Positions 23,139 through 50,910 of a stretch of 64,000 nt of DNA are shown piece after piece. This DNA is from an uncultured Oscillibacter sp. (GTDB taxonomy: Bacteria > Bacillota > Clostridia > Oscillospirales > Oscillospiraceae). The stretch covers positions 43,882 to 107,881 of the forward strand of contig CAYWAS010000001.1 of NCBI GenBank assembly GCA_964455915.1, given 5' to 3'. The notes beneath the pieces were generated by a model. That model was not told the DNA's origin and did no database searches. It saw only the letters and a list, made by a program, of their open reading frames with translations. Within the stretch, counting starts at the first letter, position 1; each line of letters opens with the position of its first letter. A program made the position numbers and the translations under genes.

Positions 23139-25067
23139 TCACATACAGCGGATCGTCACACTGTCCCGATCCTGCACGACCTGAAGAAAGCCCGCTTCGC
23201 TCCCGTTGACCGCGAGATAAACCGGCTGCTCCAGCGTCTCAAAATCCAGACCGGAGTGCTCCAGAAGATCCATCAGATAGTAGGGCTGGCCGTCCTCCTT
23301 CGCTTGCAGGGTCAGCGGCTTTTCGTTGAGCAGAATGTGAACGGAGTGAGCGCTCACACGCGGCTCGGCAGGCGTCTCGATCTGCACGGTCGGCTCTTCG
23401 ATGTGCGCCTCCACCACCTCTTCCGGCTGCTTCGGTTCCGATTCCGGCTCCTGCTCCTGCGCAGGCTCCTCTTCCCGTTCTGCCGTGGGCTGCTTCTCCA
23501 GCGTCAGAATCACATCGCCCTGCTTGAGCGGCGTGTCCATCGGACAGTCGAGATTGTTGAGCAAAACGCGGCCGCAGAAGTCTTCCCCGAGGAACTGCCC
23601 CAGCGTTTTTTTCGCGTCGGTCCCCTTCTGCGCCGGAACGAAGCGGATCCTGTCTCCGGCATGGACCGGCATATTGATCGCAGCCTCTTCCTCGTTGAGC
23701 TGTAGCACCGCCGGTATAGACGGCTCGCCGCGCAGCACGACCAACTGCCCGTCGTAGGTGACGCTCATGCTCTTTCCGGTCCCGCCAAGCATATCGGCGT
23801 AGGTGTAGCCATTCATCAGCAGCACATCGCGAAGGCTCAGCGTCCCGCTTCGGAACAGCTTCGCCGGTGCGCCGTTGAGCATGACGACATAGCTGTCGTT
23901 CAACAGACCGAGACCAGCGGAGACCGCGATCCCCAGCGGGGTCGTATACTCCGGATTGTCCAGCCTGATCTGCTCCGAAAAGGCACTCTTGGCAAAATTA
24001 TTGCCGGCGATGGCCACTCGTCTCTGATCCATGCCGAGGCTCTCCGCGACCTTTTCGCGCAGACCGCTCAGCTTGCTTCCGCCGCCCGCCAGAAATACCG
24101 CAGACGGCGCAGCGCCGTTCACCGAGACGATCTGCTCGGCGATCGCTTCGGCGAGTTTGGACAAGGGCGCGTCGATCGCAGCGCAAATGTCCTCATAGCT
24201 GTAGGTTTGCTCCAGCCCGAGGATATCGATGAAGCTGCTCTCCTCGCCGACCTTCAAGCCGCGCTTGATCTGCTCCGCCGTTTGGAAATCCACAAGGTAC
24301 GCCTGCATGAGCGCCTCTGTGATCTCATCACCGGCGACCGTCGCCATGGTATAGCCGACAACGCTCCCGTCCTTGCAGATCGCGATATCCGTGGTGCCCG
24401 CGCCGATGTCCACGAGTGCCAGATTCAGCATTCGAAGCTCCGACGGGATCGCCGCGTTCATGGCGGCGATCGGCTCGAGCGTCATGCTCGCGACCTGAAG
24501 TCCGGCCGAGCGCATCGCGGCGTAAAGGCTCTCCACGACCTCCCCGGGCAGGAAGGTCGCCACGATATCCACCTCCGCCACAGCTCCGCTATGGTCGAGC
24601 AGCGCCGTGAGCGGGTAACCGTCCAGCCGATACTGCGAGACGGTGTAGCCGACGAGGAAAAACTGCTGTTTTGTCTCCTCCTGCGCCTGCAGCGCCTGCT
24701 CCGCTTCGGAAACCGCGCCGGCCTCCAATCGGCTGATCTGCTCGGCATCGATGCTCTTCCCGCCGGTCAGGGCGAGAGAAAAGCTGCCGCGCTCCGTGCG
24801 CAGCGCGCGACCGGCGGCGGCAACGCAGACGCGCTCCAGCCGCACGCCCAGCCGCTCCTCCAATCGGTGTGTGACCGTCTGCGCCAGTCCGGCCACCTGC
24901 TGGATATTGTCGATCTGACCGTCGATCATGGCTCGCTTGCTGTGCTCGGCAAGCTCCACATCGAGGACCTTGAGACGGTCCCCCTCCGCGACACCTACGA
25001 GCCCCACAACGCAGCGGGTCCCGATATCCAGCGCATAGATCAGATCATTTCCGGCTGCTGCATTCAT
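23139..25067 (-). CDS. FtsA-like actin-fold ATPase with C-terminal beta-grasp (ThiS/MoaD-like) repeats
   Basis: Actin-fold motifs ALDIGT, LEPIAA, LVDIGAGTTDI, VFLAGGGSKL, TTPLGIA; C-terminal repeats such as LAVNGSEAGFLQVVQDRDSVTI and VLLNN...PLKQGDVI. Confidence 0.85.
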   Translation of the reverse strand: MNAAAGNDLIYALDIGTRCVVGLVGVAEGDRLKVLDVELAEHSKRAMIDGQIDNIQQVAGLAQTVTHRLEERLGVRLERVCVAAAGRALRTERGSFSLALTGGKSIDAEQISRLEAGAVSEAEQALQAQEETKQQFFLVGYTVSQYRLDGYPLTALLDHSGAVAEVDIVATFLPGEVVESLYAAMRSAGLQVASMTLEPIAAMNAAIPSELRMLNLALVDIGAGTTDIAICKDGSVVGYTMATVAGDEITEALMQAYLVDFQTAEQIKRGLKVGEESSFIDILGLEQTYSYEDICAAIDAPLSKLAEAIAEQIVSVNGAAPSAVFLAGGGSKLSGLREKVAESLGMDQRRVAIAGNNFAKSAFSEQIRLDNPEYTTPLGIAVSAGLGLLNDSYVVMLNGAPAKLFRSGTLSLRDVLLMNGYTYADMLGGTGKSMSVTYDGQLVVLRGEPSIPAVLQLNEEEAAINMPVHAGDRIRFVPAQKGTDAKKTLGQFLGEDFCGRVLLNNLDCPMDTPLKQGDVILTLEKQPTAEREEEPAQEQEPESEPKQPEEVVEAHIEEPTVQIETPAEPRVSAHSVHILLNEKPLTLQAKEDGQPYYLMDLLEHSGLDFETLEQPVYLAVNGSEAGFLQVVQDRDSVTIRCM

Positions 25068-25088
25068 TCAGCCCACGCTCCTTCTTCG

Positions 25089-25469
25089 TTATCCCTTGCC
25101 GATCGCCTTCATCGCGCCCTGCAAGCCCTCCAGAAGAGATTCCTTCGTAAAGGGCTTGAAGAGAAAGCCCTTCGCGCCCAGCGCAGCGGCCTTATCGATA
25201 ATGTCGCCATACGCCATAGACGAGACCATAAACACCTGCGCGTCCGGCCACTTTTTCCGCAGCGCATCGCAGGTCTCCAGCCCGTCCATACCAGGCATCA
25301 CAATATCCATCGTCACAAGATCGGGCATCACCTGTTCATACTGCTCCAGCGCTTCCTCGCCGGTCCTGCAATAAGCTGCGATCTCAAATTCGCTGCCCTC
25401 CAGCATTTTTTTCATTTCCGAGTGGATCACGCGTGAATCGTCAACCACCATGAGTTTATAGTGTGCCAT
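25089..25469 (-). CDS. Second CheY-like single-domain response regulator
   Basis: VVDDS, TMDIVMP (phospho-Asp), VSS and FKPF conserved; follows cheX. Confidence 0.88.
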   Translation of the reverse strand: MAHYKLMVVDDSRVIHSEMKKMLEGSEFEIAAYCRTGEEALEQYEQVMPDLVTMDIVMPGMDGLETCDALRKKWPDAQVFMVSSMAYGDIIDKAAALGAKGFLFKPFTKESLLEGLQGAMKAIGKG

Positions 25470-25484
25470 TGGTACTCCCCCTTC

Positions 25485-25979
25485 TTATTGTGCTCTTTGC
25501 GAAGTGAGCGTCCAGGAAAAGACCGCCCCTTCGTTGCTGTCGCTTATGAAATCCACCGAATATACTCTGTTTTCATTCTGCATCGCGGCGGCATCGTTAT
25601 GATGCCTGTAGATCGTCGGCAGAAAGCGGGCGGACTGCCCGGTCAGGTTGTAGAGCTCCGAAACGAATCGTCCGCAGACCATGTTGAAAAATTCCGTTGC
25701 GTACTCCTCTACCTCTTCCTGATCGCTCGCCGGTGCCCCGATCATGCCGGCCGCCAGCCGCTCAAAAAGACTCTGCTCGGCCTCGAGCCACATGAGCAGT
25801 GTGAATTCACCCCTCGTCTCGGCGTATACGACACCGAGCGGCTGCGTTGAAAAGCGTATCGGTCCGCCCTGTGCTCTTGAGATCTGTATTCCGCTGATCT
25901 GCTCTAATATCTCGCAGAGAAGCTGCTCAGCCAACTGGCTGACCCACTCCTGCTCGATCGCTTTTTGCAAGCAGATCAC
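25485..25979 (-). CDS. cheX: CheX-family CheY-P phosphatase
   Basis: VEEYATEFFNMVCGRF ExxN motif; size about 164 aa. Confidence 0.8.
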   Translation of the reverse strand: MICLQKAIEQEWVSQLAEQLLCEILEQISGIQISRAQGGPIRFSTQPLGVVYAETRGEFTLLMWLEAEQSLFERLAAGMIGAPASDQEEVEEYATEFFNMVCGRFVSELYNLTGQSARFLPTIYRHHNDAAAMQNENRVYSVDFISDSNEGAVFSWTLTSQRAQ

Positions 25980-25988
25980 CTCCCCTGC

Positions 25989-27716
25989 TTAGTAAATACT
26001 TTTGATTTCCTCTTCCTTGACATCGTAGACCATGCGGCAGCGATGACAGGGCTCCTTCGCCACCCAGGTGCGATTGTGGATCTTCAATGCGGTGACCGGA
26101 TAGACATCATCTGCCTCAAACCGGCACTTGGAAAGATCCGGAAGGATCAGCTTCAGGCTCTCGCGCGCGGCAAGCTGCTTCTTTTCCTTCATTCCCAGCA
26201 TGGACTTGCGCAGCCGCGCCCTTGCGAGCTCCGGCGTACTGCTCTCCTGTCCGCCGATCCGCTCCAGATAGCCAAGATCCTTCTCAAGCCGCTCCATTTC
26301 CGCGTGGATCTCCTCCAGCCGGTCCTCCACGGCCTGCATCTCCGTTTGAACATAGGGCAGCACGCCCAGCGTCAGCTCCGTTCTGCGGCCGGACTGCGCG
26401 CCGACCATCTTCGCGCGTATGGAGTAGGCCGCTGTCAAAGCACCGCCGATCACGCTGCCGCGGCCGCTCGTCACATTGATCCCCTCGTCGCTGAAGATCT
26501 GCGAGGTCATGATGCAGTCCGCATAAACGGTCTTCCCCGCATAAAGCACGCAGTTTTCAAGATATTTCGCGCGGACGCAGCCCTTGCTTCGCAGCAGCGC
26601 CCGATGATCTCCGACAACGCCGCGGCTGATGACAAGGTCTCCGCCTGCCTCCACGGTCGCAGCCTCTACAAGACCGTCGATCGTAACAGTGCCGCTTGCC
26701 CGCACCTCGAAGCCTTCCCGCACATCTTTATAGATGTGGACATCTCCGTTGAACTCGATGTTGCCCGTCGAATAGTCGACATCGCCGCGGATCTCCAGCA
26801 CCGGACGGACATGGAAGGAGCCGTTGGCAAATTCCAGATGCCCTTCGCGCGTTGCGACCAAATGCAGCCCATCGTCGCTGATCGCGGTGTTGCTGCCCTT
26901 CGGCACCTTCGCCGGTCGGACCGGCTTCGGGCGGACGATCTTTCCGTCCACCTGAACACCCGCCGTTCCCTCCTGCGGAAGTACGATGTCGCAGATGCAG
27001 GTGTCCTTCTCGATCTGACGGACATAGTTCATCGAGCGGTAGTCCGCCGTGCCGTCTTCGTTTATCATGACCTCCCGCGTGACCTCGCGGGGGAAGAGCT
27101 CCGTCACCTTGCCGTCGGACCCCTCCACCGGCTCCGTGCCCGCCGCAATGGGGATCAGTTCAAAATACGGGTGCTCCTGCAGCAGACGCACGACCTCGTT
27201 GGAGTCGATGCCGGTCATCACGCCGGCGTCCTGAAGCGCCTTGCCCAGCGCGCCCGCCTCGAACTGTCCCTCGGGACCAAAGGGCGGAAAGAAGAATACC
27301 CACGCCAGCATCTTGTCTCTGGACAGATAGACCTGACAACTGCTGCTCAGCGAGAAATTCTCCTGCTCTTTTCCCTTTTCGATCAGATGGAGACGGCTCT
27401 TCGCGTCCTGCTCCAGCTTGACGATCAGACGAACGCGCTCCTGCTCCAGAAGGTGTGCCGCCCGTTCCGGATCGCGTACATTTTTCGCCGGAGCGATCTC
27501 AAGCAGCGGCGGCACGGACGAGTTTGTCCACAGCTCCCACAGCTTCAGCGAAGCACCTTTGATCTCCGGCAGATAGATCTTATGCTCAATCGGACGATCG
27601 TCCTCGTCCGAGGTATGTTCAAGCTCTGAAGGTTGAGAAGGTACATCTTGTTCGATTTTCTCCGATTCGACCGCATTTTTGCGAAACGGGCTTCCAAAGT
27701 GCCATTTCCTGCTCAT
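25989..27716 (-). CDS. DUF342/FapA family protein
   Basis: LSRDKMLAWV...ALQDAGVMTGID N-terminal motif; GDVDYSTGNIEFNGDVHI...GGDLVISRGVVG beta-helix repeats. Confidence 0.88.
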   Translation of the reverse strand: MSRKWHFGSPFRKNAVESEKIEQDVPSQPSELEHTSDEDDRPIEHKIYLPEIKGASLKLWELWTNSSVPPLLEIAPAKNVRDPERAAHLLEQERVRLIVKLEQDAKSRLHLIEKGKEQENFSLSSSCQVYLSRDKMLAWVFFFPPFGPEGQFEAGALGKALQDAGVMTGIDSNEVVRLLQEHPYFELIPIAAGTEPVEGSDGKVTELFPREVTREVMINEDGTADYRSMNYVRQIEKDTCICDIVLPQEGTAGVQVDGKIVRPKPVRPAKVPKGSNTAISDDGLHLVATREGHLEFANGSFHVRPVLEIRGDVDYSTGNIEFNGDVHIYKDVREGFEVRASGTVTIDGLVEAATVEAGGDLVISRGVVGDHRALLRSKGCVRAKYLENCVLYAGKTVYADCIMTSQIFSDEGINVTSGRGSVIGGALTAAYSIRAKMVGAQSGRRTELTLGVLPYVQTEMQAVEDRLEEIHAEMERLEKDLGYLERIGGQESSTPELARARLRKSMLGMKEKKQLAARESLKLILPDLSKCRFEADDVYPVTALKIHNRTWVAKEPCHRCRMVYDVKEEEIKSIY

Positions 27717-35251: not shown

Positions 35252-36034
35252 TTGGCTAAGATCATTACTGTGACCAATCAGAAGGGCGGCGTCGGGAAAA
35301 CGACCATTACAGCAGCCCTTATTGCCGAGCTCCAGCGCAGGGGTGCGCGTGTTCTGGGCGTGGACATCGACCCGCAGGGCAACCTCGGCTTCTCGTTCGG
35401 GCTGAACATCGAGGACGGGCTTTCCGTTTACGATGTCCTGACCGGAAAATGCTCGACCGCCGAAGCGATCGCGCACACGGACTACGGTGACATTCTGCAC
35501 ACGGACATCATGCTCTCGGCCTTTGTCTCGGGAGACAGCGGCTTCCACACGAGCAAGGACACCATGCTCTCGTACCATCTCGATCAGGTCAAAAGCGATT
35601 ACGACTTCATTTTCATCGACACGCCGCCGTCCCTGAATATTCTGACGATCAACGCCTATGTCGCCTCGTCGGAGCTCATCATTCCGATGAACGCCGAGGT
35701 TTTGAGTCTGGTCGGCATTTCGCAGATCCAGGACACCGTTGAGGCGATCCGCAAAAGCTCCAATCCGAATCTGAAGGTCTGCGGCATCGTTATGAACAAA
35801 TACAACGCGCGCCTGATCTCTCACCGTGAGATCCTGGACATGGCGGAGCAGCTCGCCGAGCAGATGGACACGAGGGTCTTCCCTGCCAAGATCCGAAACG
35901 GCATCGATGTCGCGACCGCACCTGCCCACGGGCAGAGCGTTGTGACCTACCGCCCGAAGTCGAATCCGGCGATGGACCTTCGCAAGCTCGTCGACGCGGT
36001 CGCAGGCGACCGATTCTCCCGCACAAGAAAATAA
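35252..36034 (+). CDS. Orphan ParA/Soj-family ATPase
   Basis: Deviant Walker A NQKGGVGKTT, DIDPQGN, IDTPPSL; no parB in the window. Confidence 0.92.
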   Translation: MAKIITVTNQKGGVGKTTITAALIAELQRRGARVLGVDIDPQGNLGFSFGLNIEDGLSVYDVLTGKCSTAEAIAHTDYGDILHTDIMLSAFVSGDSGFHTSKDTMLSYHLDQVKSDYDFIFIDTPPSLNILTINAYVASSELIIPMNAEVLSLVGISQIQDTVEAIRKSSNPNLKVCGIVMNKYNARLISHREILDMAEQLAEQMDTRVFPAKIRNGIDVATAPAHGQSVVTYRPKSNPAMDLRKLVDAVAGDRFSRTRK

Positions 36035-36082: not shown

Positions 36083-36898
36083 TTACTGCTCTGCGCCTGC
36101 GTGCCGCGGCGACTCCGCGACCCGATTGCAGGCGTGCAGGATCTGCGCCGTAACAGCAGCGCTGTATCTGCGCTCGTATACCGAGATGCGGGGAATGCGT
36201 TCCCCCTCGCCCATGACAACATATTTCGGCTGCAAATTGTTCAGCGCGATCGCCCTCACATCTGCCTTGCAGCGAGAGCAGCGGCAAATGCCGAACATGG
36301 TCATATACTTCTCGGCGCTCTCCTCCACAAGTGCCTGCATGACATTGCAGATCTTCTCGCGCGGAGCGCTTTCCTCCGCAGGCTCTTCCACCTGCTTTGC
36401 GTCGCTCTCGCCGATAGGCGCAGCGGGTGCAGCAGGCACGGGAGCCGGCTCAGGTTCAGTCTCTGGCTCTGGAACGGATTCAGGCTCGGGAACAAGCTCA
36501 GGTTCAGACTCAGGATTCAGTTCAGAAACGGATTCAGGCTCGGGAACAGGAGCAGGGTCAGCTTCGAAAACAGGCTCCGCCTTGACCGGCACAGCCTCCT
36601 CCGGCTCCTCGACAGCCGGACGCTCCGGCTGCTGCGGGGCGGACAGCTCTTCGCCCGTCACCTCCCGCTCCAACGCGTCCTTGATCTCCTGCGAGACGGC
36701 GGCCTCCTCATTGAGTGAGGCAATGATCGGGTGCTGCACAGGCACAGTCCTCTGCGCCGCAGCGACTGGTCGCTCCGCTTCACCGGCGGCCTCCGTCTGC
36801 TGCTGAACGGCGTTTTCCGTAGCCGTGGTGTTCCCGTTCTTACGCAGCAGATTCATGACATGAGCGGTTTTTGTGGTGTCCTTGTTTTTTGCTGACAT
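36083..36898 (-). CDS. ComFB-domain protein with a long Pro/Glu-rich N-terminal linker
   Basis: C-terminal NVMQALVEE...CRCSRCKADVRAIALNNLQPKYVV...ACNRVAESPRH is the ComFB-family signature as recalled. Confidence 0.8.
   Translation of the reverse strand: MSAKNKDTTKTAHVMNLLRKNGNTTATENAVQQQTEAAGEAERPVAAAQRTVPVQHPIIASLNEEAAVSQEIKDALEREVTGEELSAPQQPERPAVEEPEEAVPVKAEPVFEADPAPVPEPESVSELNPESEPELVPEPESVPEPETEPEPAPVPAAPAAPIGESDAKQVEEPAEESAPREKICNVMQALVEESAEKYMTMFGICRCSRCKADVRAIALNNLQPKYVVMGEGERIPRISVYERRYSAAVTAQILHACNRVAESPRHAGAEQ
36440..36580. repeat. Low-complexity (PE)n coding repeats
   Basis: Repeated TCAGG/CTCAGG units with GGATTCAGGCTCGGGAAC twice; encodes PEPESVSELNPESEPELVPEPESVPEPETEPEP. Confidence 0.75.
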
Positions 36899-36950
36899 AG
36901 ATTGCCTCCTGTTGTCGTTCCGGCGATCCCGCGCTCCGCTCCGGCAGAGA

Positions 36951-38213
36951 TCAATCCATCTTCTGGTTCGGGTAGACCTTCGTCAACTGCTCCCAGAGAA
37001 TGTTGACATTGTCGATGCAAAGGAAATAGATGCTGGTGAGCACATTGCTCGGAATCCCCAGCCCCTCGGCATACTGATTGATCTTATCCCAGTCGGCAGA
37101 CTCGTAGCTCAACACCAGCTCATAGAGCTCACCGCAGCGTCCCTCACGCGTTGTAAGCGCGACCTTTATCTCCTCGGCAATGGGGATCTCATTGAGGATA
37201 TCCTCCAGCGGCGCGTCGATCAGGTGGTGCAGCGTAGAGAACATACCCATCAGATAAGCCTCCGCCTTCGAGATGGGCATATCCTGCGCATAGTTCATCA
37301 GCTCGCTGCAAAAATGCGCGCGCATGAAGGAGATGCGCAGAAACTCCTCCGCGCCCGGGTCGATCCCATGCTCCGCGTTGCTGGCGCTGAGCAGATAGAT
37401 CCACTGCTTGAGCTGACCGAGACCAAGCGTCACAAGCGCCTGATGAATGGTCGTTGCGCGCTGGCGCAGTGCAAAATAGGCGGAGTTCGCCATTTTCAGC
37501 ACGCCGTAGGACAATCCCGCGTCCATCGCGATGATCTGCTCGATCTCCTGCAGGTCGGGCTCGTCCTTCGTCACAGCGACCATCAGACGGAAGAAGGTGC
37601 TTTGCAGATAGCCGCCGCTGTGCGCCGCCGTCGTGAGCTTCTCCGCCACATACGGTCCCTCGAGCCCATTTGCCCCGAGGGAGACGGCCAGATCGTACTG
37701 CTCCTTCGTTTTGATGTTGTTGATGATGCAGGTCTTGTTCATGCTGTGCGCGATCTCGACCGTGTTGCGGATCGCGGCGGGTGCCGTGGTCTCCATATTG
37801 ATCTTGATATAGTCGATGCTGTCCAGCAGCGACAGATAGCGGGGCAGGAACTGGAATTCATTGACCGCGATCTTATAGCCCTCTTTGGCAAACATATTGA
37901 CAAAGTGCATCGACAGCGGATGAATGATGACGCTGTCATCGATCTGAATGACCAGCTCCGATTTGTCGAACAGCCGCGGCGCCTTCTTCATCAAAAGCAT
38001 GGTGGTGAAGGTCATAAAGTTCAAGCCGCCCTTGAGCGCCTTGGAGCTGTTTTGCGTGAGGAAGTTGTAGATAGTATCCGCAGCCGCGAATTCGTGGACC
38101 GGTCCGGCCTCCATACTGAACGCCTGATTCTCGCCATGATACAGGATCTCATGGCCGATAATCGCCCCGTCAACGGTCTTGATCGGCTGTCTTACGATGT
38201 ATTTACCGCCCAT
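36951..38213 (-). CDS. EAL-HDOD protein (YuxH/PdeH architecture) with a degenerate EAL domain
   Basis: YIVRQPI...GHEILYH N-terminus; HDOD LSYGVLKMANSA...IHQALVTLG...EAYLMGMFSTL. Confidence 0.85.
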   Translation of the reverse strand: MGGKYIVRQPIKTVDGAIIGHEILYHGENQAFSMEAGPVHEFAAADTIYNFLTQNSSKALKGGLNFMTFTTMLLMKKAPRLFDKSELVIQIDDSVIIHPLSMHFVNMFAKEGYKIAVNEFQFLPRYLSLLDSIDYIKINMETTAPAAIRNTVEIAHSMNKTCIINNIKTKEQYDLAVSLGANGLEGPYVAEKLTTAAHSGGYLQSTFFRLMVAVTKDEPDLQEIEQIIAMDAGLSYGVLKMANSAYFALRQRATTIHQALVTLGLGQLKQWIYLLSASNAEHGIDPGAEEFLRISFMRAHFCSELMNYAQDMPISKAEAYLMGMFSTLHHLIDAPLEDILNEIPIAEEIKVALTTREGRCGELYELVLSYESADWDKINQYAEGLGIPSNVLTSIYFLCIDNVNILWEQLTKVYPNQKMD

Positions 38214-41808: not shown

Positions 41809-42657
41809 TCACCGGTTCATCGGTTCCGCGCGGGAACCGCTCAGATACGGCTCCATATATCTGTGCAGCTTTTCAATGGCTTTTGCATGGATCTGTGAGA
41901 TCCGCGGGGGCGTCAGGTCCATGACCTGCGCGATCTCGTTGAGCTGCAAGTCCCGCTCATAATGCAGGGACAAAACGAGCTGCTCGTTTTTCCGCAGGGA
42001 CGCGATGCCCTCCTCCAATACACTCTGCAGCTCACGCCGCTGCAATATCGCCTCCGGATAGCTGTCCGGATCTGCGGGCAGAATGTCGTACAAAAAGACC
42101 TTCCCGTCTGTCTCCATGCGGGATAAGTGTATCCCCTCGTCCAGCGGCAGGACCTTTTTCAGTGCCGCGTCCTTCAGCCCCTTCCGGTAGCGCTCCTCCG
42201 AAATGTTCATGAAGTCCACCATTTCCGCCGTGGTGGGCGTGCGCCCGATCTCACCGGTGAGCGTCTCCCGCGCAGTATCGATCTCCTTCATGCGCCGCCG
42301 CGCCGAGCGCGAGACCCAGTCCTGCTTTCTCACCAGATCGATGATCATTCCGCGCAGGCGCTTCGATGCAAAGGTCTCGAACTTTACACCCTTGTCCGGA
42401 TCGAACTTGTCGATCACCGCAAGGAGCGTCAGGATCCCCTCGCTGATCACATCTTCGATCTGCGCGAAATCGCTGTAAAACGCTCTTGTTTGCAGCGCGA
42501 TCGACTTGATCAGATGCTCATAGCGCAGGACGAGCGGCCAGCGCAGCGCCTCGTTTCCCGTTTCCTTGTATGCACGCATGAGCGTGTCCGTGTCCATTCC
42601 CTCGATCTCTGCTTCTGTGTAGCCGGTGTTGGTGTCAAGCGCTATCTGCTCACCCAT
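41809..42657 (-). CDS. fliA: RNA polymerase sigma28 factor FliA/SigD
   Basis: KFDPDKGVKFETFASKRLRGMIID..RKQDW; region 4 EQLVLSLHY...EIAQVM...RISQIH. Start placed at ATG 42657. Confidence 0.93.
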   Translation of the reverse strand: MGEQIALDTNTGYTEAEIEGMDTDTLMRAYKETGNEALRWPLVLRYEHLIKSIALQTRAFYSDFAQIEDVISEGILTLLAVIDKFDPDKGVKFETFASKRLRGMIIDLVRKQDWVSRSARRRMKEIDTARETLTGEIGRTPTTAEMVDFMNISEERYRKGLKDAALKKVLPLDEGIHLSRMETDGKVFLYDILPADPDSYPEAILQRRELQSVLEEGIASLRKNEQLVLSLHYERDLQLNEIAQVMDLTPPRISQIHAKAIEKLHRYMEPYLSGSRAEPMNR

Positions 42658-44749
42658 TTGACACCGCCTTTCGTTCATGGTGCGAGGCGCTCTCCAAGGA
42701 GATCGTGCCAAGCGCCTGTATCTGAACATTATTTGTGATCTCCGCAAAGGATAGGACATAGACATTCGGGAAGAACTGCGAGAGCATACGGCTGAAATAG
42801 CCGCGGATCACCTGACTGACCAGCACGACCGGCGTTTGCGAAAGGCGGCTGAAGCTCTGGAGCAGCTCCGTCATCTGCGTGATGATCTGCTGCATCAGCT
42901 CCGGCCCGATCGCCAGATATATGCCCTGTTCGTTCTTCGTCAGCGAGGCGATGATCCTCTTTTCCACCTCGGAATCCAGCGTGACGACGCGGAGCTGTCC
43001 ACTCTCGCAGAACCGTCTTGTGATCGTGCGGGCCAGCGCGATACGCACCTGCTCGACGGCTGTATCCACATCGCGCTTCTGGTTCAGCGCGTCCATCAGC
43101 GTTTCGAGAATGATGCCGAGGTCCTTGATGGGCACGCCTTCCTTCAGCAGCGCCCGCAGCACCTTTTCCAGCGTGGCATAGCTCACGATGTTCGGGATCG
43201 CCTCCGCGACCAGCTCCGGCTCTGTCTTTTTCAGGTTTTCGACAAGCTGCATCGTCTCCGCGCGGGTCAGCAGCTCGTAGGCGTGTTTTTTGACTGTTTC
43301 GGACAAATGCGTCAGCATGACCGAGAGCGGGTCGATGACATTGTATCCGTAGATCTCCGCCATTTCCTTGTTCTCCGGCAGAATCCAGCGCGAGGGAATG
43401 CCGTAGGCAGGCTCGATCGTCTCGATCCCGTCGATCTCCCCGAGGGGGTCCGCCGGTTCGAGGGCAAGGTAATAATCCACCAGGATCTCGCCCCGCGCCA
43501 CTTCCTCGCCGCGAATGCGGATCACATACTGATTCGTCGCAAGGAAGGCGGCGTCGTGCAGGCGGATCGATGGGAACACGAAGCCCATATCCTGCGCGTA
43601 CTGCCGACGGAAGATCACGATACGGCTGATCAGCTTGCCGCCGTTGCTCTCATCGACCAGCGGGATCAGGCTGTAGCCGAATTCCATCTCGATCGGCTCG
43701 ACCGTCAGCAGAGAATATACATTGTTGATGTCCTTGTAGTAATCGGTCTCGCTCGGAGTCGGTGCCGCCGCATGGTCGACCGCCTCCTCCTCCCGCGCTG
43801 CCACCCTCTGCCGCTCCATTTGCCGGCTGACGGTATAGCCGCCGCCGAGAAGCAGCACGCTGCTGATCAGCAGCGCAAGATGGGGCGTCCCCGGGATTGC
43901 CGAGAGGAACAGCAATATCACGCCTGTCGCCATGATCGCGCGGGGCTGCGCCTTGAACTGCGCGATCACATCCATATTCAGGCTGCCCTCGGAGACCGAG
44001 CGCGTCACGATCATGCCCGTGGCCGTGGAGATCATCAGCGCCGGAAGCTGCGAGACCAAGCCGTCGCCGATCGTCAGAATGGAATACTTCTGCAGCACGC
44101 TCGAAAAGTCGCCGCCGTTGAAGACCATGCCTATGATCACACCGCCGACAAAGTTGATCAGCGTGATGATGATGGACATGACGGCGTCGCCCTTGACGAT
44201 CTTCGTTGCACCGTCCATTGCGCCGTAGAAGTCGGCTTCCTTCTGGATCTTGTGGCGGCGTGCGCGTGCCTCCTCCTCGTTGATGAGACCGGAGCTCAGG
44301 TCGGCGTCGATCGCCATCTGCTTTCCGGGCATCGCGTCCAGCGTGAAGCGGGCCGCGACCTCAGCCACACGCTCGGCGCCCTTGGTGATCACGATAAACT
44401 GCACGAGCACAATGATCAGGAAGATCACAACACCGATCACGATGTTGCCGCCGGTGATCATATTGCCGAAGTTTTGAATGACTGAGCCGGCGTCTCCGTC
44501 CCGCAGGATCAGACGCGTGCTGGACACATTCAATCCCAGTCGGAACAGCGTCGTGACCAGCAAAAGGGACGGAAAGATCGAAAACTCAAGTGTTTCGGAA
44601 ATATTCATGGTGATCATGAGCACCATGATGGATAAGCCAATATTGATGATCAGCAGAATGTCGAGCAAAAAGGGCGGCAGCGGAATGATCAGGAACAGGA
44701 CCACGACGACGACGCACAGAGATATTACATTATCAAAGATCCGCTTCAT
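42650..44749 (-). CDS. flhA: Flagellar export gate FlhA
   Basis: RVAEVAARFTLDAMPGKQMAIDADL, FYGAMDGATKIVKGDA. Confidence 0.98.
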   Translation of the reverse strand: MKRIFDNVISLCVVVVVLFLIIPLPPFLLDILLIINIGLSIMVLMITMNISETLEFSIFPSLLLVTTLFRLGLNVSSTRLILRDGDAGSVIQNFGNMITGGNIVIGVVIFLIIVLVQFIVITKGAERVAEVAARFTLDAMPGKQMAIDADLSSGLINEEEARARRHKIQKEADFYGAMDGATKIVKGDAVMSIIITLINFVGGVIIGMVFNGGDFSSVLQKYSILTIGDGLVSQLPALMISTATGMIVTRSVSEGSLNMDVIAQFKAQPRAIMATGVILLFLSAIPGTPHLALLISSVLLLGGGYTVSRQMERQRVAAREEEAVDHAAAPTPSETDYYKDINNVYSLLTVEPIEMEFGYSLIPLVDESNGGKLISRIVIFRRQYAQDMGFVFPSIRLHDAAFLATNQYVIRIRGEEVARGEILVDYYLALEPADPLGEIDGIETIEPAYGIPSRWILPENKEMAEIYGYNVIDPLSVMLTHLSETVKKHAYELLTRAETMQLVENLKKTEPELVAEAIPNIVSYATLEKVLRALLKEGVPIKDLGIILETLMDALNQKRDVDTAVEQVRIALARTITRRFCESGQLRVVTLDSEVEKRIIASLTKNEQGIYLAIGPELMQQIITQMTELLQSFSRLSQTPVVLVSQVIRGYFSRMLSQFFPNVYVLSFAEITNNVQIQALGTISLESASHHERKAVSNG

Positions 44750-48008: not shown

Positions 48009-48377
48009 TCAGGGATTGCCGAGAATGCTGGTAACGGTCTTGAGCACACGGTCCGCCTTAAAGGGCTTGACGATGAAGTCCTTTGCACCGGAGCGGACTG
48101 CGTCCATGACCATGCTCTCCTGACCCATGGCGGAGCACATGACCACATTGGCGCCGCCGTCCTTCGCGCGGATCGCCTTGAGCGCCTCCAGACCGTCCAT
48201 ATTGGGCATGGTGATGTCCATGATCACCAGGTCGGGATTGATCTCGCTGAACTTTTCAACGGCGTCCGCACCGTCCACCGCTTCGAACAGCTCCGTATAG
48301 CCACTCTTGCTCAGAACATCTTTGATCAGCTTTCGCATGAAGGCCGCGTCGTCAACCAAAAGAATTTTCTTACCCAT
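48009..48377 (-). CDS. cheY: Chemotaxis response regulator CheY
   Basis: KKILLVDDAAFMR, MDITMPNMDG, MCSAMGQESMV, FIVKPF (Bacillus-type CheY). Confidence 0.96.
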   Translation of the reverse strand: MGKKILLVDDAAFMRKLIKDVLSKSGYTELFEAVDGADAVEKFSEINPDLVIMDITMPNMDGLEALKAIRAKDGGANVVMCSAMGQESMVMDAVRSGAKDFIVKPFKADRVLKTVTSILGNP

Positions 48378-48454
48378 TGTAAAACCCATCCTTTACTTCT
48401 TTTCTATAAAAATCTATAAATTATTTTTTTAACCTGTCTTGCGAAGGTATTCTC

Positions 48455-49897
48455 TTATTGCTTTGCTCCCGGTATGACGATACCCGGCTTCTGCACGATC
48501 TCCGTGATGCGAACACCGAAATTGTCATCGACCACAACGACATCGCCCCGCGCGATGCACTTGCCGTTCACGAACAGATCCACCTGATCGCCGGCGAGCT
48601 TGTCCAGCACCACCAGAGAGCCCTTGGAGAACTCCAGGATATCCTGCACCTTCTGGCGGGTCCGACCGATCTCGACGGTGACCTGCAGCGGCACCTCCAT
48701 GATCAGCTCCAGATTTTCCGCCTGCTCTTTGCCGAGGGATACGGTCTTCTCCATTTCCGGCATCACAACAGGCTGCGTGTTGATCACCTTCGGCTCAGGC
48801 TGCTTGCTCTCCGGTGCCTGAGGCGGGTACTGCCAGTACATCTGCGGCGGATAGCCGGGATATCCGCCGAAATAGGGCGGCATTCCCATCGCCTGCATCT
48901 GCTCCGGCGTCGGCATCGTATAGCCCTGTGCGGGCGGCACCGTCGGCTGCGGCGCGGCAGACTGCGGCGGTACGGGTGTCTGCGGTGCGGCGGGCTGCGG
49001 CGCATTCTCCCGCAGCATTTTTTCGATCTCCTCCTGACTGAGACTCCGGCCTCCGTCAGACTTCTGCTCAGGCGGCTCCGGCTCTGCGCCCGCACCGCTG
49101 ATCAGTCGTTCGATCTCCTCCTGGCTGAGCGCCTTTCCCGAATCGGCCGGCTCGGGCTTGGGCGGCTCCGCCGCCGCGCCGCCGGACATCAGCCGCTCGA
49201 TCTCCTCCTGTGTGAGCTGTCTGGAGCCGCTGCTCTCCTCCGCCTTCGGCGGTTCGGGCTGCGCGGGCGCGGCCTGAAGGTCCGCCCCGCTCTCGTCCTC
49301 ATCGCCGAGGCCCAGTCCCTTGAGCAGCTCCTTCGCCAGACCGACGCTCATGACATTCATGAACTCGCTCTCCAGCGCGTTCTCGATCTTCAGCGAGAAC
49401 TTGACCGCAACGATCGTCTCCGCTCCCCGCGGAAGGTGGTTCGCCTTGAAGGACTCCAGATCCTCCAATTCAAACGGCTCCGGCGTTGAGATGTTGACGG
49501 GGAAGCCTAAAAACTCCGACATCGCGGTCGCCGCCGCGCCCATCATCTGGTTCATCACTTCGCAAACGGCACTGATCGTCAGCTCATTGAGCTCAAACTC
49601 CTCCTCCGGAGTCTCCGAGCCCATCAGAATGTCAACGATCACCTTCACATCGCCGCGGCGCAGAAGCATGATATTGCTCCCGTCAAGCCCCTCGACATAG
49701 CGGATCTCGACACCCATGGCAGGCTCCAGCTTGCCGAGGGCAAAATCCTTCACATCAACGACCTGCACCTGAGGAGTGGTAATATCAACCCGGTGATCGA
49801 GCATATTGGACACTGCCGTCGCGGACGAGCCCAGGCTGATGTTCATCATCTCGCCAAGCGCATCGATCTCCATCGGGCTGAACAATCTATTCTCCAT
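48455..49897 (-). CDS. fliY: Switch phosphatase FliY (CheC domain, long linker, FliN domain)
   Basis: GEMMNIS and CEVMNQ ExxN sites; C-terminal VPLQVTVEIGRT...IARGDVVVVDDNFGVRI. Confidence 0.95.
   Translation of the reverse strand: MENRLFSPMEIDALGEMMNISLGSSATAVSNMLDHRVDITTPQVQVVDVKDFALGKLEPAMGVEIRYVEGLDGSNIMLLRRGDVKVIVDILMGSETPEEEFELNELTISAVCEVMNQMMGAAATAMSEFLGFPVNISTPEPFELEDLESFKANHLPRGAETIVAVKFSLKIENALESEFMNVMSVGLAKELLKGLGLGDEDESGADLQAAPAQPEPPKAEESSGSRQLTQEEIERLMSGGAAAEPPKPEPADSGKALSQEEIERLISGAGAEPEPPEQKSDGGRSLSQEEIEKMLRENAPQPAAPQTPVPPQSAAPQPTVPPAQGYTMPTPEQMQAMGMPPYFGGYPGYPPQMYWQYPPQAPESKQPEPKVINTQPVVMPEMEKTVSLGKEQAENLELIMEVPLQVTVEIGRTRQKVQDILEFSKGSLVVLDKLAGDQVDLFVNGKCIARGDVVVVDDNFGVRITEIVQKPGIVIPGAKQ
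49013..49225 (-). repeat. Three tandem 87-bp (29-aa) units inside fliY, each with L(S/T)QEEIE
   Basis: TCGATCTCCTCCTG core recurs at 49023, 49110 and 49197 (87-bp period). Confidence 0.9.
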
Positions 49898-49914
49898 ACT
49901 CTCAACTCGCTCCT

Positions 49915-50910
49915 TCACTCGGCCTGATAGCACACATCATCTATCTTGACCGCGATATTTTTCTTATGCGTTCCGATCTTGCCCGTAAACCAGTGGTATC
50001 CGCCGATCTCCAGATAAACGGGAGATGTGTGGGCCTGACCCAGATCGATCACATCGCCGACATGAAGATGGTAGACATCGCTCAGGGAAAGCTGCGTGCT
50101 CCCCAGCTCCGCGACGATCTCCAGCTCGGAATCACGCAGGCTCTCAAATATTTCTGTCGACTTATTTTCCGACGCGCTTCTTCGCATCGGATTTTCCCGA
50201 CTGATCTCCGCAAATATGTTGATCAGCATTTCGCCGGGAAGACATATACTCATGCGTCCGTCCCCGTTCGGGAACTGGATCTTCAGGTCAACGATCACAA
50301 TGATCTCGTCCAGACCGATCACCTGATTGAGCGTCGGGTTCACCTCGGTGCGGCCGAAGGTGAATTTGATGGGCAGATAACTCTCCCAGCTATTCCCCAT
50401 GACCGAAACAAGGTCTATCACCGTGTCCTCATACAGCCGCAGCTCCACATCGGTGTAGCTGTAGTCGGAGGGCACATCTACCTGTGCCGACCCGTCGCCG
50501 CCGAGCAGATAGTCCATGATCGTCAGACCGGTCGAGGTGGACAGGTAGAACATGACGGGGATCTCCTCCACCCTGCTCTTGGTCTCCACATCGATCAGGG
50601 CCAGCACATCACCCTCGGTCAGCGCGTTGGAAAATTCGTAGTAGTGCTGCTCCTCTATGCTCTCCACCGTGATCTCACAGTTGGTTCGCAGCCGCGCGTT
50701 GAGGCGGGAATTGATGATCCGCGCGTAGGTATCAAAAATGCCGTTGAGCATTTTGATGCGGTCTTTTGTAAATTTCTTCGGACTCGCAAAGTCATATTTG
50801 CGATATTTCTTCTCCGGCTGCTCTTCCTTTGCAGGCTCCGCGACTCCGTCGCCGCTCCGCATCGAGTTGAGCAACGCGTCGATCTCACTTTGAGATAATA
50901 CATCTGGCAT
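49915..50910 (-). CDS. fliM: Motor switch protein FliM
   Basis: N-terminal VLSQSEIDALL; YDFASPKKFTKD; C-terminal SpoA domain. Confidence 0.97.
   Translation of the reverse strand: MPDVLSQSEIDALLNSMRSGDGVAEPAKEEQPEKKYRKYDFASPKKFTKDRIKMLNGIFDTYARIINSRLNARLRTNCEITVESIEEQHYYEFSNALTEGDVLALIDVETKSRVEEIPVMFYLSTSTGLTIMDYLLGGDGSAQVDVPSDYSYTDVELRLYEDTVIDLVSVMGNSWESYLPIKFTFGRTEVNPTLNQVIGLDEIIVIVDLKIQFPNGDGRMSICLPGEMLINIFAEISRENPMRRSASENKSTEIFESLRDSELEIVAELGSTQLSLSDVYHLHVGDVIDLGQAHTSPVYLEIGGYHWFTGKIGTHKKNIAVKIDDVCYQAE

What the first reader, a model, noticed from the sequence alone, without database searches (positions are those of the whole stretch)
49013..49225. FliY carries three extra tandem CheY-P docking motifs in its linker
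Seen: exact 29-aa periodicity of LTQEEIERL / LSQEEIERL / LSQEEIEKM between the CheC and FliN domains, closely matching FliM's own N-terminal LSQSEIDALL. FliY's native N-terminal motif looks eroded (FSPMEIDAL). Known: LSQxEIxxLL is the CheY-P binding peptide of FliM and of B. subtilis FliY. Inference: a multivalent CheY-P capture array on the C-ring that raises local concentration or cooperativity, or discriminates between the two CheYs; copy number may be a tunable gain control.
Basis: partly seen in the sequence, partly recalled or inferred. Interest (0 to 1): 0.75.

Follow-up and report, generated by a model that had tools for sequence, protein, structure and literature searches.

The report
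FliY linker carries repeated CheY-docking motifs
In this gut Clostridia bacterium the flagellar switch phosphatase FliY has no CheY-binding peptide at its start; it carries three conserved copies in the flexible linker between its two domains, a layout shared by many Oscillospiraceae and Lachnospiraceae and not found in the literature searched.

Summary
FliY (window 48455..49897, minus strand) carries LTQEEIERLM, LSQEEIERLI and LSQEEIEKML exactly 29 residues apart. They lie in a disordered linker between an intact CheC-type phosphatase domain and the FliN domain.

A scoring matrix built only from FliM N-termini ranks the three motifs 2nd, 17th and 19th among 2 million genomic 10-mers. FliM itself ranks first.

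- "FSPMEIDAL" is not an eroded docking peptide. It is the first CheC active-site helix (D-x3-E-x2-N).
- The linker motifs are not "extra". The N-terminal peptide is absent in the whole clade, so they stand in its place.

Across 350 FliYs, 27 have only an N-terminal motif, 205 have only linker motifs (1-5 copies), none has both, and 110 have neither.

The known second partner of this motif, the ATPase FlhG, is absent. No FlhF or FlhG was found in the genome, and flhA directly abuts fliA.

The best explanation is relocated, multiplied CheY-P docking helices that feed the phosphatase and the switch (confidence about 0.55). Binding itself is untested. This is a new variant of a known kind. Copy number is evolutionarily labile, but a role as a "gain control" is speculation.

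The parts
48455..49897 (-). fliY coding sequence (480 aa from the ATG at 49897; the open frame runs up to a GTG at 49933, which overlaps the end of fliM)
   Evidence: ORF. NCBIfam FliY NF005995 scores 323 bits. AGGAG lies 12 nt upstream of the ATG, just after the fliM stop. Relatives start at the equivalent M-x-x-x-[LI]F[ST]PMEIDA.
49316..49876 (-). CheC-like phosphatase domain (residues 20-206, GTG numbering)
   Evidence: Pfam CheC x2 and CheX. AlphaFold2 pLDDT is about 85 over residues 8-194 in M13 numbering.
49841..49864 (-). CheC active site 1, D24-ALG-E28-MM-N31.
   Evidence: D12/E16/N19 (M13 numbering) are invariant in 40 diverse FliYs. E-x2-N is intact in nearly all FliYs of all classes. 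Consensus D/S-X3-E-X2-N cited in PMC12887009.
49550..49573 (-). CheC active site 2, S121-AVC-E125-VM-N128
   Evidence: S109/E113/N116 (M13 numbering) are invariant.
48719..49315 (-). Disordered Pro/Ala/Glu/Gln-rich interdomain linker (residues 207-405)
   Evidence: AlphaFold2 pLDDT is below 50 except at short helices. No Pfam family matches.
49187..49216 (-). Docking-type motif 1, LTQEEIERLM (residues 240-249)
   Evidence: Predicted helix 230-238 (M13 numbering), local pLDDT about 74. FliM-matrix rank 19 of 2.0 million.
49100..49129 (-). Docking-type motif 2, LSQEEIERLI (residues 269-278)
   Evidence: Predicted helix 259-267. FliM-matrix rank 2 of 2.0 million.
49013..49042 (-). Docking-type motif 3, LSQEEIEKML (residues 298-307)
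   Evidence: Predicted helix 288-297. FliM-matrix rank 17 of 2.0 million.
48494..48706 (-). FliN/SpoA C-ring domain (residues 410-480)
   Evidence: Pfam FliMN_C 1.8e-22; TIGR02480 fliN scores 99.7 bits.
49915..50910 (-). fliM. The canonical N-terminal docking peptide LSQSEIDALL is at 50869-50898.
   Evidence: Pfam FliM and FliMN_C; TIGR01397. Top hit of the matrix scan.
48009..48389 (-). cheY, the presumed ligand. It is about 60% identical to Thermotoga maritima CheY, and the beta5 segment GAKDFIVKPF is identical.
   Evidence: best PDB matches are 4IGA and 1TMY.
41809..44749 (-). flhA (42650..44749) directly abutting fliA/sigD (41809..42765). There is no flhF or flhG between them.
   Evidence: Genome-wide, no FlhF scores above the cut-off and there is no FlhF or FlhG orthologue by tblastn.

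Best explanation
The three LSQEEIExL[LMI] helices are FliM-N/'EIDAL'-type docking peptides for phosphorylated CheY. In this Clostridial lineage they sit in the flexible CheC-FliN linker of FliY instead of at its N-terminus, and they have been multiplied by tandem duplication.

Proposed mechanism:
- Each helix lies in a disordered Pro/Ala/Glu-rich tether. The helices are about 30 residues apart, and the first is about 35 residues from the CheC domain.
- Each captures CheY-P through the alpha4-beta5-alpha5 face of CheY.
- Captured CheY-P is held at high local concentration next to the two intact E-x2-N phosphatase sites of FliY, and next to FliM and FliN in the C-ring.
- The array would therefore speed signal termination and buffer CheY-P at the motor.

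Shown here: the motif's identity, position, conservation and predicted helicity; its complementary distribution with the N-terminal motif; intact active sites; a canonical CheY; and the absence of FlhF and FlhG.

Inferred, not shown: binding to CheY-P, and any effect on phosphatase rate or switching.
For: 1. Sequence. The residues shared by FliM and FliY docking peptides are kept: L/M at position 0, S at 1, Q at 2, I at 5, L/M at 8 and L/M/I at 9. A matrix built only from FliM N-termini ranks the repeats 2nd, 17th and 19th of 2.0 million genomic 10-mers. The strict pattern occurs otherwise only in FliM and once elsewhere.

2. Selection. Spacers have diverged (46-51% nucleotide identity) while the cores are kept. 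In 330 unique linker units, Q at position 2 is 100% conserved, I at position 5 is 97%, and S at position 1 is 91%.

3. Complementary distribution in 350 FliYs: 27 have an N-terminal motif only, 205 have linker motifs only, and none has both. A FliY from another family of the same order (L011) has LSQEEINALL at its N-terminus and nothing in the linker.

4. AlphaFold2 predicts three isolated helices exactly at the motifs, within an otherwise disordered linker.

5. Both CheC active sites are intact, so CheY-P is the expected substrate.

6. The adjacent CheY is about 60% identical to T. maritima CheY, which was crystallised with the FliM peptide (4IGA). The beta5 segment is identical (the content of 4IGA is taken from the Table 1 listing in PMC7693769, and from my own knowledge).

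7. The literature establishes that CheY-P binds the EIDAL(L) motif of FliM and FliY N-termini (PMC9126983; PMC6946799).

8. The alternative known ligand, FlhG, is missing.
Against: - No binding data exist, and no complex prediction was possible with the tools on hand.
- Position 6 is Glu in 91% of linker motifs. It is Asp or Asn in every FliM and every N-terminal FliY motif. Positions 3-4 are EE, against SQ in Clostridial FliM. This systematic 'flavour' difference could mean different affinity or a different partner.
- Many close relatives have no motif at all (Lawsonibacter, Butyricicoccus, Faecalimonas, Oribacterium, Caproiciproducens) yet keep both active sites. The array is therefore dispensable.
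- The complementary distribution rests on essentially one phylogenetic split: the N-type FliYs form a single clade with 99% SH-aLRT branch support.
- A flagellar-cluster ParA-like ATPase exists in these genomes and could be an alternative ligand.
Confidence: 0.55

Rival explanations
1. The motifs dock a MinD/ParA-type ATPase rather than, or as well as, CheY-P. This would parallel FlhG binding to the N-terminal 36 residues of Bacillus FliY to drive C-ring assembly. The candidate here is the flagellar-cluster ParA-like ATPase at 35252..36034 (+).
For: - FlhG binds FliY-N36, the EIDAL region, in Bacillus and Geobacillus (PMC12327844; PMC12826062).
- All N-type FliY loci that extend past flhA carry flhF and flhG, and all linker-type loci lack them.
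- An orthologous ParA-like ATPase (41-64% identity) is found in every flagellated FlhF-less Clostridial genome tested, often within 2-25 kb of fliY. Non-flagellated genomes of the same genus have only generic paralogues at 32-39% identity.
Against: - FlhF and FlhG themselves are absent from this genome and from five linker-type genomes of the same genus.
- The ParA-like ATPase is not an FlhG orthologue. It is 28% identical, has no DQAxxLR N-terminus, and falls below every NCBIfam cut-off.
- It is equally present in genomes whose FliY has no motif (those of L079, L087, L097, L099, L111).
- FliM keeps a canonical EIDAL motif that could serve such a partner.
Confidence: 0.13
2. The helices are assembly or intramolecular elements. 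They might pack on FliY's own CheC domain (auto-inhibition), or on FliM, FliG or FliH, to organise the C-ring, and have nothing to do with CheY.
For: - The local pLDDT of 70-75 for the helices could reflect predicted packing.
- The linker contains a further conserved helix, PEQMQAM, at residues 331-336 (M13 numbering), so not every conserved linker element is an EIDAL motif.
- The Glu-for-Asp change at position 6 is systematic.
Against: - Copy number changed at least 22 times among 65 FliYs and the motifs were lost completely in several lineages. That is hard to reconcile with a structural role in a conserved machine.
- Only the 10-residue EIDAL-like core is conserved. Spacer length varies from 22 to 51 residues.
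- The core reproduces the CheY-contacting pattern of FliM.
Confidence: 0.15
3. The repeats are neutral low-complexity expansion: a duplicated linker segment with no function of its own.
For: The linker is compositionally biased. In relatives it expands by DNA tandem duplication: a 108-nt unit x 2.9 at 90% identity in L006, and an 81-nt unit x 3.9 at 85% in L052.
Against: - In this gene the units are old (about 50% nucleotide identity), yet the 10-residue cores are nearly identical.
- The same core is kept across Oscillospiraceae and Lachnospiraceae FliYs that are only 40-50% identical overall.
- The chance of such a motif in a shuffled linker is 2e-5.
Confidence: 0.03

Closest known systems
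Canonical FliY of Bacillus subtilis, Geobacillus and Thermotoga maritima (N-terminal EIDAL peptide, then CheC-like phosphatase domain, then FliN domain)
   Same: It has the same two domains, the same two E-x2-N active sites, the same operon position after fliM, and the same kind of docking peptide.
   Different: The peptide is not at the N-terminus. It lies in the CheC-FliN linker, in three copies (0-5 in relatives). Position 6 is Glu instead of Asp or Asn. The lineage lacks FlhF and FlhG, which use the N-terminal peptide in Bacillus.
FliM N-terminal CheY-P binding peptide (LSQxEIDALL; structures 1F4V and 4IGA)
   Same: The core pattern L-S-Q-x-E-I-[acidic]-x-L-L is shared. Both are short amphipathic helices in a disordered segment on a C-ring protein.
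   Different: The linker motifs are internal rather than terminal, are repeated, and are more acidic (EEIE versus SQID in Clostridial FliM). They are carried by the phosphatase subunit rather than the switch subunit.
FlhG (YlxH/FleN) binding to FliY-N36
   Same: It uses the same motif class as its docking site, so this is a precedent for a second ligand.
   Different: FlhG and FlhF are absent from this genome and from all linker-type loci examined.
Sporadic 'full or degenerate EIDAL motifs' noted in FliN and FliY (Henderson et al. 2020, PMC6946799)
   Same: That paper recognises that EIDAL motifs occur outside FliM.
   Different: In the text I read, it does not describe linker-located tandem arrays, their clade-wide conservation, or their mutual exclusion with the N-terminal motif.

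Membership tests
FliY (CheC-FliN fusion switch phosphatase, NCBIfam NF005995) | CheC-like domain with two D/S-x3-E-x2-N active-site helices | tested here: met
   Pfam CheC x2. D24/E28/N31 and S121/E125/N128 are invariant columns. The E-N/E-N pattern is confirmed.
FliY (CheC-FliN fusion switch phosphatase, NCBIfam NF005995) | C-terminal FliN/SpoA domain | tested here: met
   PF01052 at 1.8e-22; TIGR02480 scores 99.7 bits against a cut-off of 84.
FliY (CheC-FliN fusion switch phosphatase, NCBIfam NF005995) | Whole-protein score above the curated cut-off, and an fla/che operon position next to fliM and cheY | tested here: met
   323.5 bits against a cut-off of 218. The gene order fliM-fliY-cheY-fliO-fliP is seen.
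FliY (canonical Bacillus/Thermotoga architecture) | CheY-P/FlhG-binding EIDAL peptide at the extreme N-terminus | tested here: not met
   Only about 8 residues precede the CheC domain. None of the 120 closest homologues has an N-terminal motif, and no FliY with linker motifs has one.
EIDAL / FliM-N-type docking motif | Core pattern hydrophobic-S/T-Q-x-E/Q-I-D/N-x-L-L | tested here: met
   Nine of the ten positions fit. The FliM-only matrix gives ranks 2, 17 and 19 of 2.0 million. The strict regular expression is otherwise found only in FliM and once elsewhere in the genome.
EIDAL / FliM-N-type docking motif | Asp (or Asn) at the seventh core residue (position 6 counting from 0) | tested here: not met
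   It is Glu in all three copies and in 91% of 330 linker units. It is Asp or Asn in all FliM and N-terminal FliY motifs.
EIDAL / FliM-N-type docking motif | Short helix within an intrinsically disordered segment | tested here: met
   AlphaFold2 predicts helices 230-238, 259-267 and 288-297 (M13 numbering) flanked by segments with pLDDT below 50.
EIDAL / FliM-N-type docking motif | Phosphorylation-dependent binding to the alpha4-beta5-alpha5 face of CheY | not testable with these tools
   Only single-chain prediction of native sequences is allowed. A canonical CheY partner is present.
FlhG-docking site | Presence of the FlhF/FlhG pair in the genome or operon | tested here: not met
   TIGR03499 scores at best 86 bits against a cut-off of 174. 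tblastn with FlhF and FlhG from L098 and L101 finds only SRP GTPases and generic MinD/ParA at 22-34% identity. flhA abuts fliA. Five relatives also lack FlhF.

The most novel reading that the evidence does not exclude
The Glu-type linker helices may form a distinct, lower- or differently-tuned class of CheY-P sites. If so, the signal would be partitioned at the motor. Asp-type FliM peptides would pass CheY-P to the switch. The more numerous FliY peptides would act as a phosphatase-coupled sink; if FliY replaces FliN at about three per FliM, there would be up to about nine per FliM. The copy number of that sink (0-5 per FliY, changed at least 22 times among 65 FliYs by in-frame tandem duplication and loss) would set the gain and adaptation speed of chemotaxis in FlhFG-less gut Clostridia.
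Probability: 0.22. Interest if true: 0.75.

Novelty: new variant of a known kind. Interest (0 to 1): 0.56.

Why it matters
FliY is the textbook example of hydrolysing the chemotaxis signal where it acts, and its N-terminal peptide is taken as a defining part. Current reviews state that the EIDALL motif sits at the N-termini of FliM and FliY (PMC9126983).

Here a large, mostly uncultured group of gut Clostridia (Oscillospiraceae, many Lachnospiraceae) builds the same enzyme with the docking peptide moved into the interdomain tether and multiplied. The move coincides with loss of the FlhF/FlhG flagellar-placement system, which uses that peptide in Bacillus.

If the helices bind CheY-P, this is a natural series of 0-5 docking sites per subunit. 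Such a series would allow a direct test of how local tethering and valency set phosphatase efficiency and motor sensitivity. It would also help separate the two jobs of the EIDAL motif, signalling and assembly. For annotation, FliYs of this clade should not be described as lacking CheY-binding capacity, nor as having a degenerate N-terminal motif.

Tried and rejected
- **Eroded N-terminal motif.** Rejected. FSPMEIDALGEMMN is CheC active-site helix 1.
- **Internal translation starts making short FliN isoforms with an N-terminal MSQEEIE.** In 64% of linker units the first residue is Met. In this gene, though, all three first residues are Leu encoded by CTC, which is not a start codon. This cannot be the general explanation.
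- **Recent slippage or a contingency locus in this genome.** Rejected. Tandem Repeats Finder finds no repeat over the motifs and the units are 46-51% identical. Relatives do have young DNA repeats.
- **FlhG docking.** FlhF and FlhG are absent.
- **Link between docking motifs and phosphatase competence.** None found. All three classes keep both E-x2-N sites.
- **CheY surface differences between classes.** Only K111 and K117 differ (K versus Q/E in N-type genomes), and this is confounded by phylogeny.
- **Statistical test of N-motif versus FlhF co-occurrence.** There is only one independent contrast, so the test is not possible.
- **Opposite-strand ORFs** (for example 48458..49489 +). These are high-GC shadow frames.
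- **Pfam PF28396.** It is listed for every homologue in the precomputed table, but it is not in the local library, so its meaning is unknown.
- **Papers not held.** Sircar 2013 and Muff & Ordal 2008 were unavailable.
- **Literature searches** for a prior description found none.
Full report
**1. What is there**

The minus-strand ORF 48455..49933 encodes FliY. Pfam finds two CheC stretches and a C-terminal FliMN_C domain at residues 410-480. The NCBIfam FliY equivalog NF005995 scores 323 bits against a cut-off of 218. The gene sits in a Bacillus-like fla/che operon in the order fliM (49915..50910), fliY, cheY (48009..48389), fliO, fliP.

The likely true start is the ATG at 49897 (Met13 of the long frame). 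AGGAG lies 12 nt upstream of it, directly after the fliM stop. Relatives begin at the same place, with M-x-x-x-[LI]F[ST]PMEIDA.

Residues 240-249, 269-278 and 298-307 read LTQEEIERLM, LSQEEIERLI and LSQEEIEKML. They are exactly 29 residues apart, at window 49187-49216, 49100-49129 and 49013-49042. FliM begins MPDVLSQSEIDALLN.

**2. More than chance**

- A shuffled linker gives at least one such motif with P = 2e-5.
- In all six-frame ORFs of the 1.9-Mb genome the strict pattern occurs five times: once in FliM, three times in FliY, and once elsewhere.
- A position matrix built only from 17 distinct FliM N-terminal 10-mers ranks FliM first and the three FliY repeats 2nd, 17th and 19th among 2.0 million genomic 10-mers.
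- The 87-nt units are only 46-51% identical at DNA level and are invisible to Tandem Repeats Finder.

The copies are therefore old, and their cores have been held by selection while the spacers drifted.

**3. Structure**

AlphaFold2, run with a 49-sequence alignment, gives a confident CheC domain (pLDDT about 85). The linker is disordered (pLDDT below 50) except for three short helices that coincide with the three motifs (local pLDDT about 70-75). There is one further helix at PEQMQAM. The FliN domain is poorly modelled as a monomer, which is expected for a domain that works as a dimer.

**4.

'FSPMEIDAL' is not a decayed docking peptide. D24-x3-E28-x2-N31 is the first CheC-family active-site helix, with the consensus D/S-X3-E-X2-N (PMC12887009). 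These residues, and the second site S121/E125/N128, are invariant across 40 diverse FliYs.

A canonical FliY from another family of the same order (L011) has the equivalent helix, LSHEECDAIGEIGN, about 40 residues downstream of a true N-terminal LSQEEINALL.

This FliY has only about 8 residues ahead of the CheC domain. The linker motifs stand in place of the N-terminal peptide rather than adding to it.

**5. Distribution**

- All 120 closest homologues (59-99% identity; Oscillibacter and Oscillospiraceae MAGs) carry 1-4 linker motifs and no N-terminal one.
- Same-genus genomes carry 2-5 copies. Only 9 of 25 genomes in the genus have fliY at all.
- Among 150 representatives of 50%-identity clusters and 80 species-representative loci, three classes appear:
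  - N-terminal motif only: Bacillus, Paenibacillus, Cytobacillus, Acetatifactor.
  - Linker motifs only: Oscillospiraceae, Lawsonibacter relatives, Lacrimispora, Hungatella, Dorea, Anaerotignum, Ruminococcus, Clostridium aminobutyricum. Variant cores occur, such as LDQSAIDALLNG and MSQDEINAML.
  - Neither: Oribacterium, Faecalimonas, Butyricicoccus, Caproiciproducens and others.
- Pooled over 350 FliYs: 27 have only an N-terminal motif, 205 have only linker motifs (28 with one copy, 86 with two, 84 with three, 6 with four, 1 with five), none has both, and 110 have neither. Motif spacing is 22-51 residues, most often 30-33.
- The loose pattern occurs at 0.039 per 1000 residues in 514,689 residues of neighbouring proteins.
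- On a tree of the CheC and FliN domains (65 rows), N-type FliYs form one clade (99% SH-aLRT branch support). Within the other clade, motif presence needs at least 7 changes and copy number at least 22. The basal lineages have none.
- In relatives the arrays are young DNA tandem repeats with different unit lengths: 108 nt x 2.9 at 90% identity in L006, and 81 nt x 3.9 at 85% in Hungatella L052. This implies repeated, independent amplification.

**6. Which ligand**

The literature gives two ligands for the EIDAL motif.
- CheY-P binds the motif at the N-termini of FliM and FliY (PMC9126983; PMC6946799).
- The MinD-like ATPase FlhG binds FliY-N36 in Bacillus and Geobacillus, and FliM in polar flagellates (PMC12327844; PMC12826062).

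I tested the FlhG alternative.
- In the window, flhA (42650..44749) is followed directly by fliA (41809..42765).
- The FlhF model TIGR03499 reaches only 86 bits, against a cut-off of 174, and those hits are Ffh and FtsY.
- tblastn with FlhF and FlhG taken from a Bacillus locus and an Acetatifactor locus finds only SRP GTPases and generic MinD/ParA proteins at 22-34% identity.
- Five linker-type genomes of the same genus (88-100% complete) also lack FlhF. The N-type genome G025 has it on the same contig as fliY.
- In the 80 loci, every N-type locus that reaches past flhA has flhF and flhG, and no linker-type locus does.

This supports the idea that the N-terminal peptide goes with FlhG. It also argues that the linker motifs do not serve FlhG. 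However, it is a single phylogenetic contrast and cannot be tested statistically.

**7. Support for CheY-P**

- Both phosphatase sites are intact.
- The adjacent CheY is about 60% identical to T. maritima CheY (4IGA, 1TMY), with an identical GAKDFIVKPF segment.
- The hydrophobic and S-Q positions of the peptide are preserved.

**8. Reasons for caution**

- Linker motifs have Glu at position 6 in 91% of cases. FliM and N-terminal FliY motifs always have Asp or Asn there. Positions 3-4 are EE, against SQ in Clostridial FliM. That is a consistent second 'flavour'.
- Motif-less FliYs keep their active sites, so the array is modulatory, not essential.
- CheY surfaces differ little between classes. 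Positions 111 and 117 are Lys in this clade, but this is confounded by phylogeny.

**9. A second candidate ligand**

The ParA-like ATPase at 35252..36034 (+) has orthologues at 41-64% identity in every flagellated FlhF-less Clostridial genome tested, often within 2-25 kb of fliY. Non-flagellated genomes of the same genus have only generic paralogues, and so do the FlhF-positive genomes and G033.

It may be the FlhG analogue of this lineage. It is present whether or not FliY has motifs, so it does not depend on them. I keep it as a rival at about 0.13.

**10. Verdict**

The most likely reading (about 0.55) is a relocated, multiplied set of CheY-P docking helices. They would tether substrate to the FliY phosphatase and concentrate signal at the C-ring. 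Binding is inferred, not shown.

I found no description of this architecture in the searchable literature. [quoted passage not shown]

Earlier notes of this scan report the same pattern in other genomes. That agrees with the wide distribution shown here, but it is not independent evidence.

I classify this as a new variant of a known kind, of moderate interest. The 'tunable gain' idea is compatible with the labile copy number between species, but it is untested. Rapid copy-number change is unlikely in this genome, because its repeats have diverged.

Noticed in passing
window 35252-36034 (+): A ParA/MinD-like ATPase (Pfam AAA_31/CbiA, below all NCBIfam cut-offs) is embedded in the flagellar/chemotaxis cluster. 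Orthologues at 41-64% identity occur in all flagellated FlhF-less Clostridia tested, often near fliY. Non-flagellated genomes of the same genus and FlhF-positive genomes have only generic paralogues at 31-39% identity. It may be a functional analogue of FlhG.
   Followed up: partly
window 23139-27716 (-): A second signalling module: FapA (25989..27716), a CheX-like phosphatase (25485..25979), a second CheY-like receiver (25089..25469, 37% identical to CheY) and a 642-aa PilM/FtsA-like protein (23139..25067).
   Followed up: partly
window 41809-44749 (-): flhA is followed directly by fliA/sigD, with no flhF or flhG. The same junction is seen in all of the roughly 60 linker-type or motif-less Clostridial loci that extend past flhA. 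Bacilli and Acetatifactor have flhF-flhG there.
   Followed up: yes
window 48890-48910 (-), FliY residues about 343-348: A fourth short predicted helix lies in the linker (PEQMQAM, pLDDT about 75). It corresponds to a Met/Gln-rich conserved stretch in relatives (for example MEMQQQMQQQMQ and LLNQMQQSQxQMMEL). Its function is unknown.
   Followed up: no
window 36083-38213 (-): A ComFB-domain protein with a long acidic, Pro-rich N-terminal half (36083..36898) and an EAL-HDOD protein (36951..38213) lie between the ParA-like gene and cheV-cheD-cheC.
   Followed up: no
genus level (G001-G024): Only 9 of 25 genomes of the window's genus encode FliY, so flagellar motility is patchy within the genus.
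   Followed up: no
L048-L052, L056-L062 and others (Lachnospiraceae-type loci): The gene order is fliM-cheY-(gap of about 0.5 kb)-fliY, instead of fliM-fliY-cheY as in the window and in Oscillospiraceae.
   Followed up: no
precomputed Pfam column for P0001-P0120: Every close homologue is tagged with PF28396.1. This family is absent from the local Pfam copy, so it could not be identified. It may already model part of this protein.
   Followed up: partly
window 48933-49002: A 33-nt tandem repeat x 2.1 (78% match) encodes the Pro/Gln/Ala-rich stretch just downstream of motif 3.
   Followed up: no
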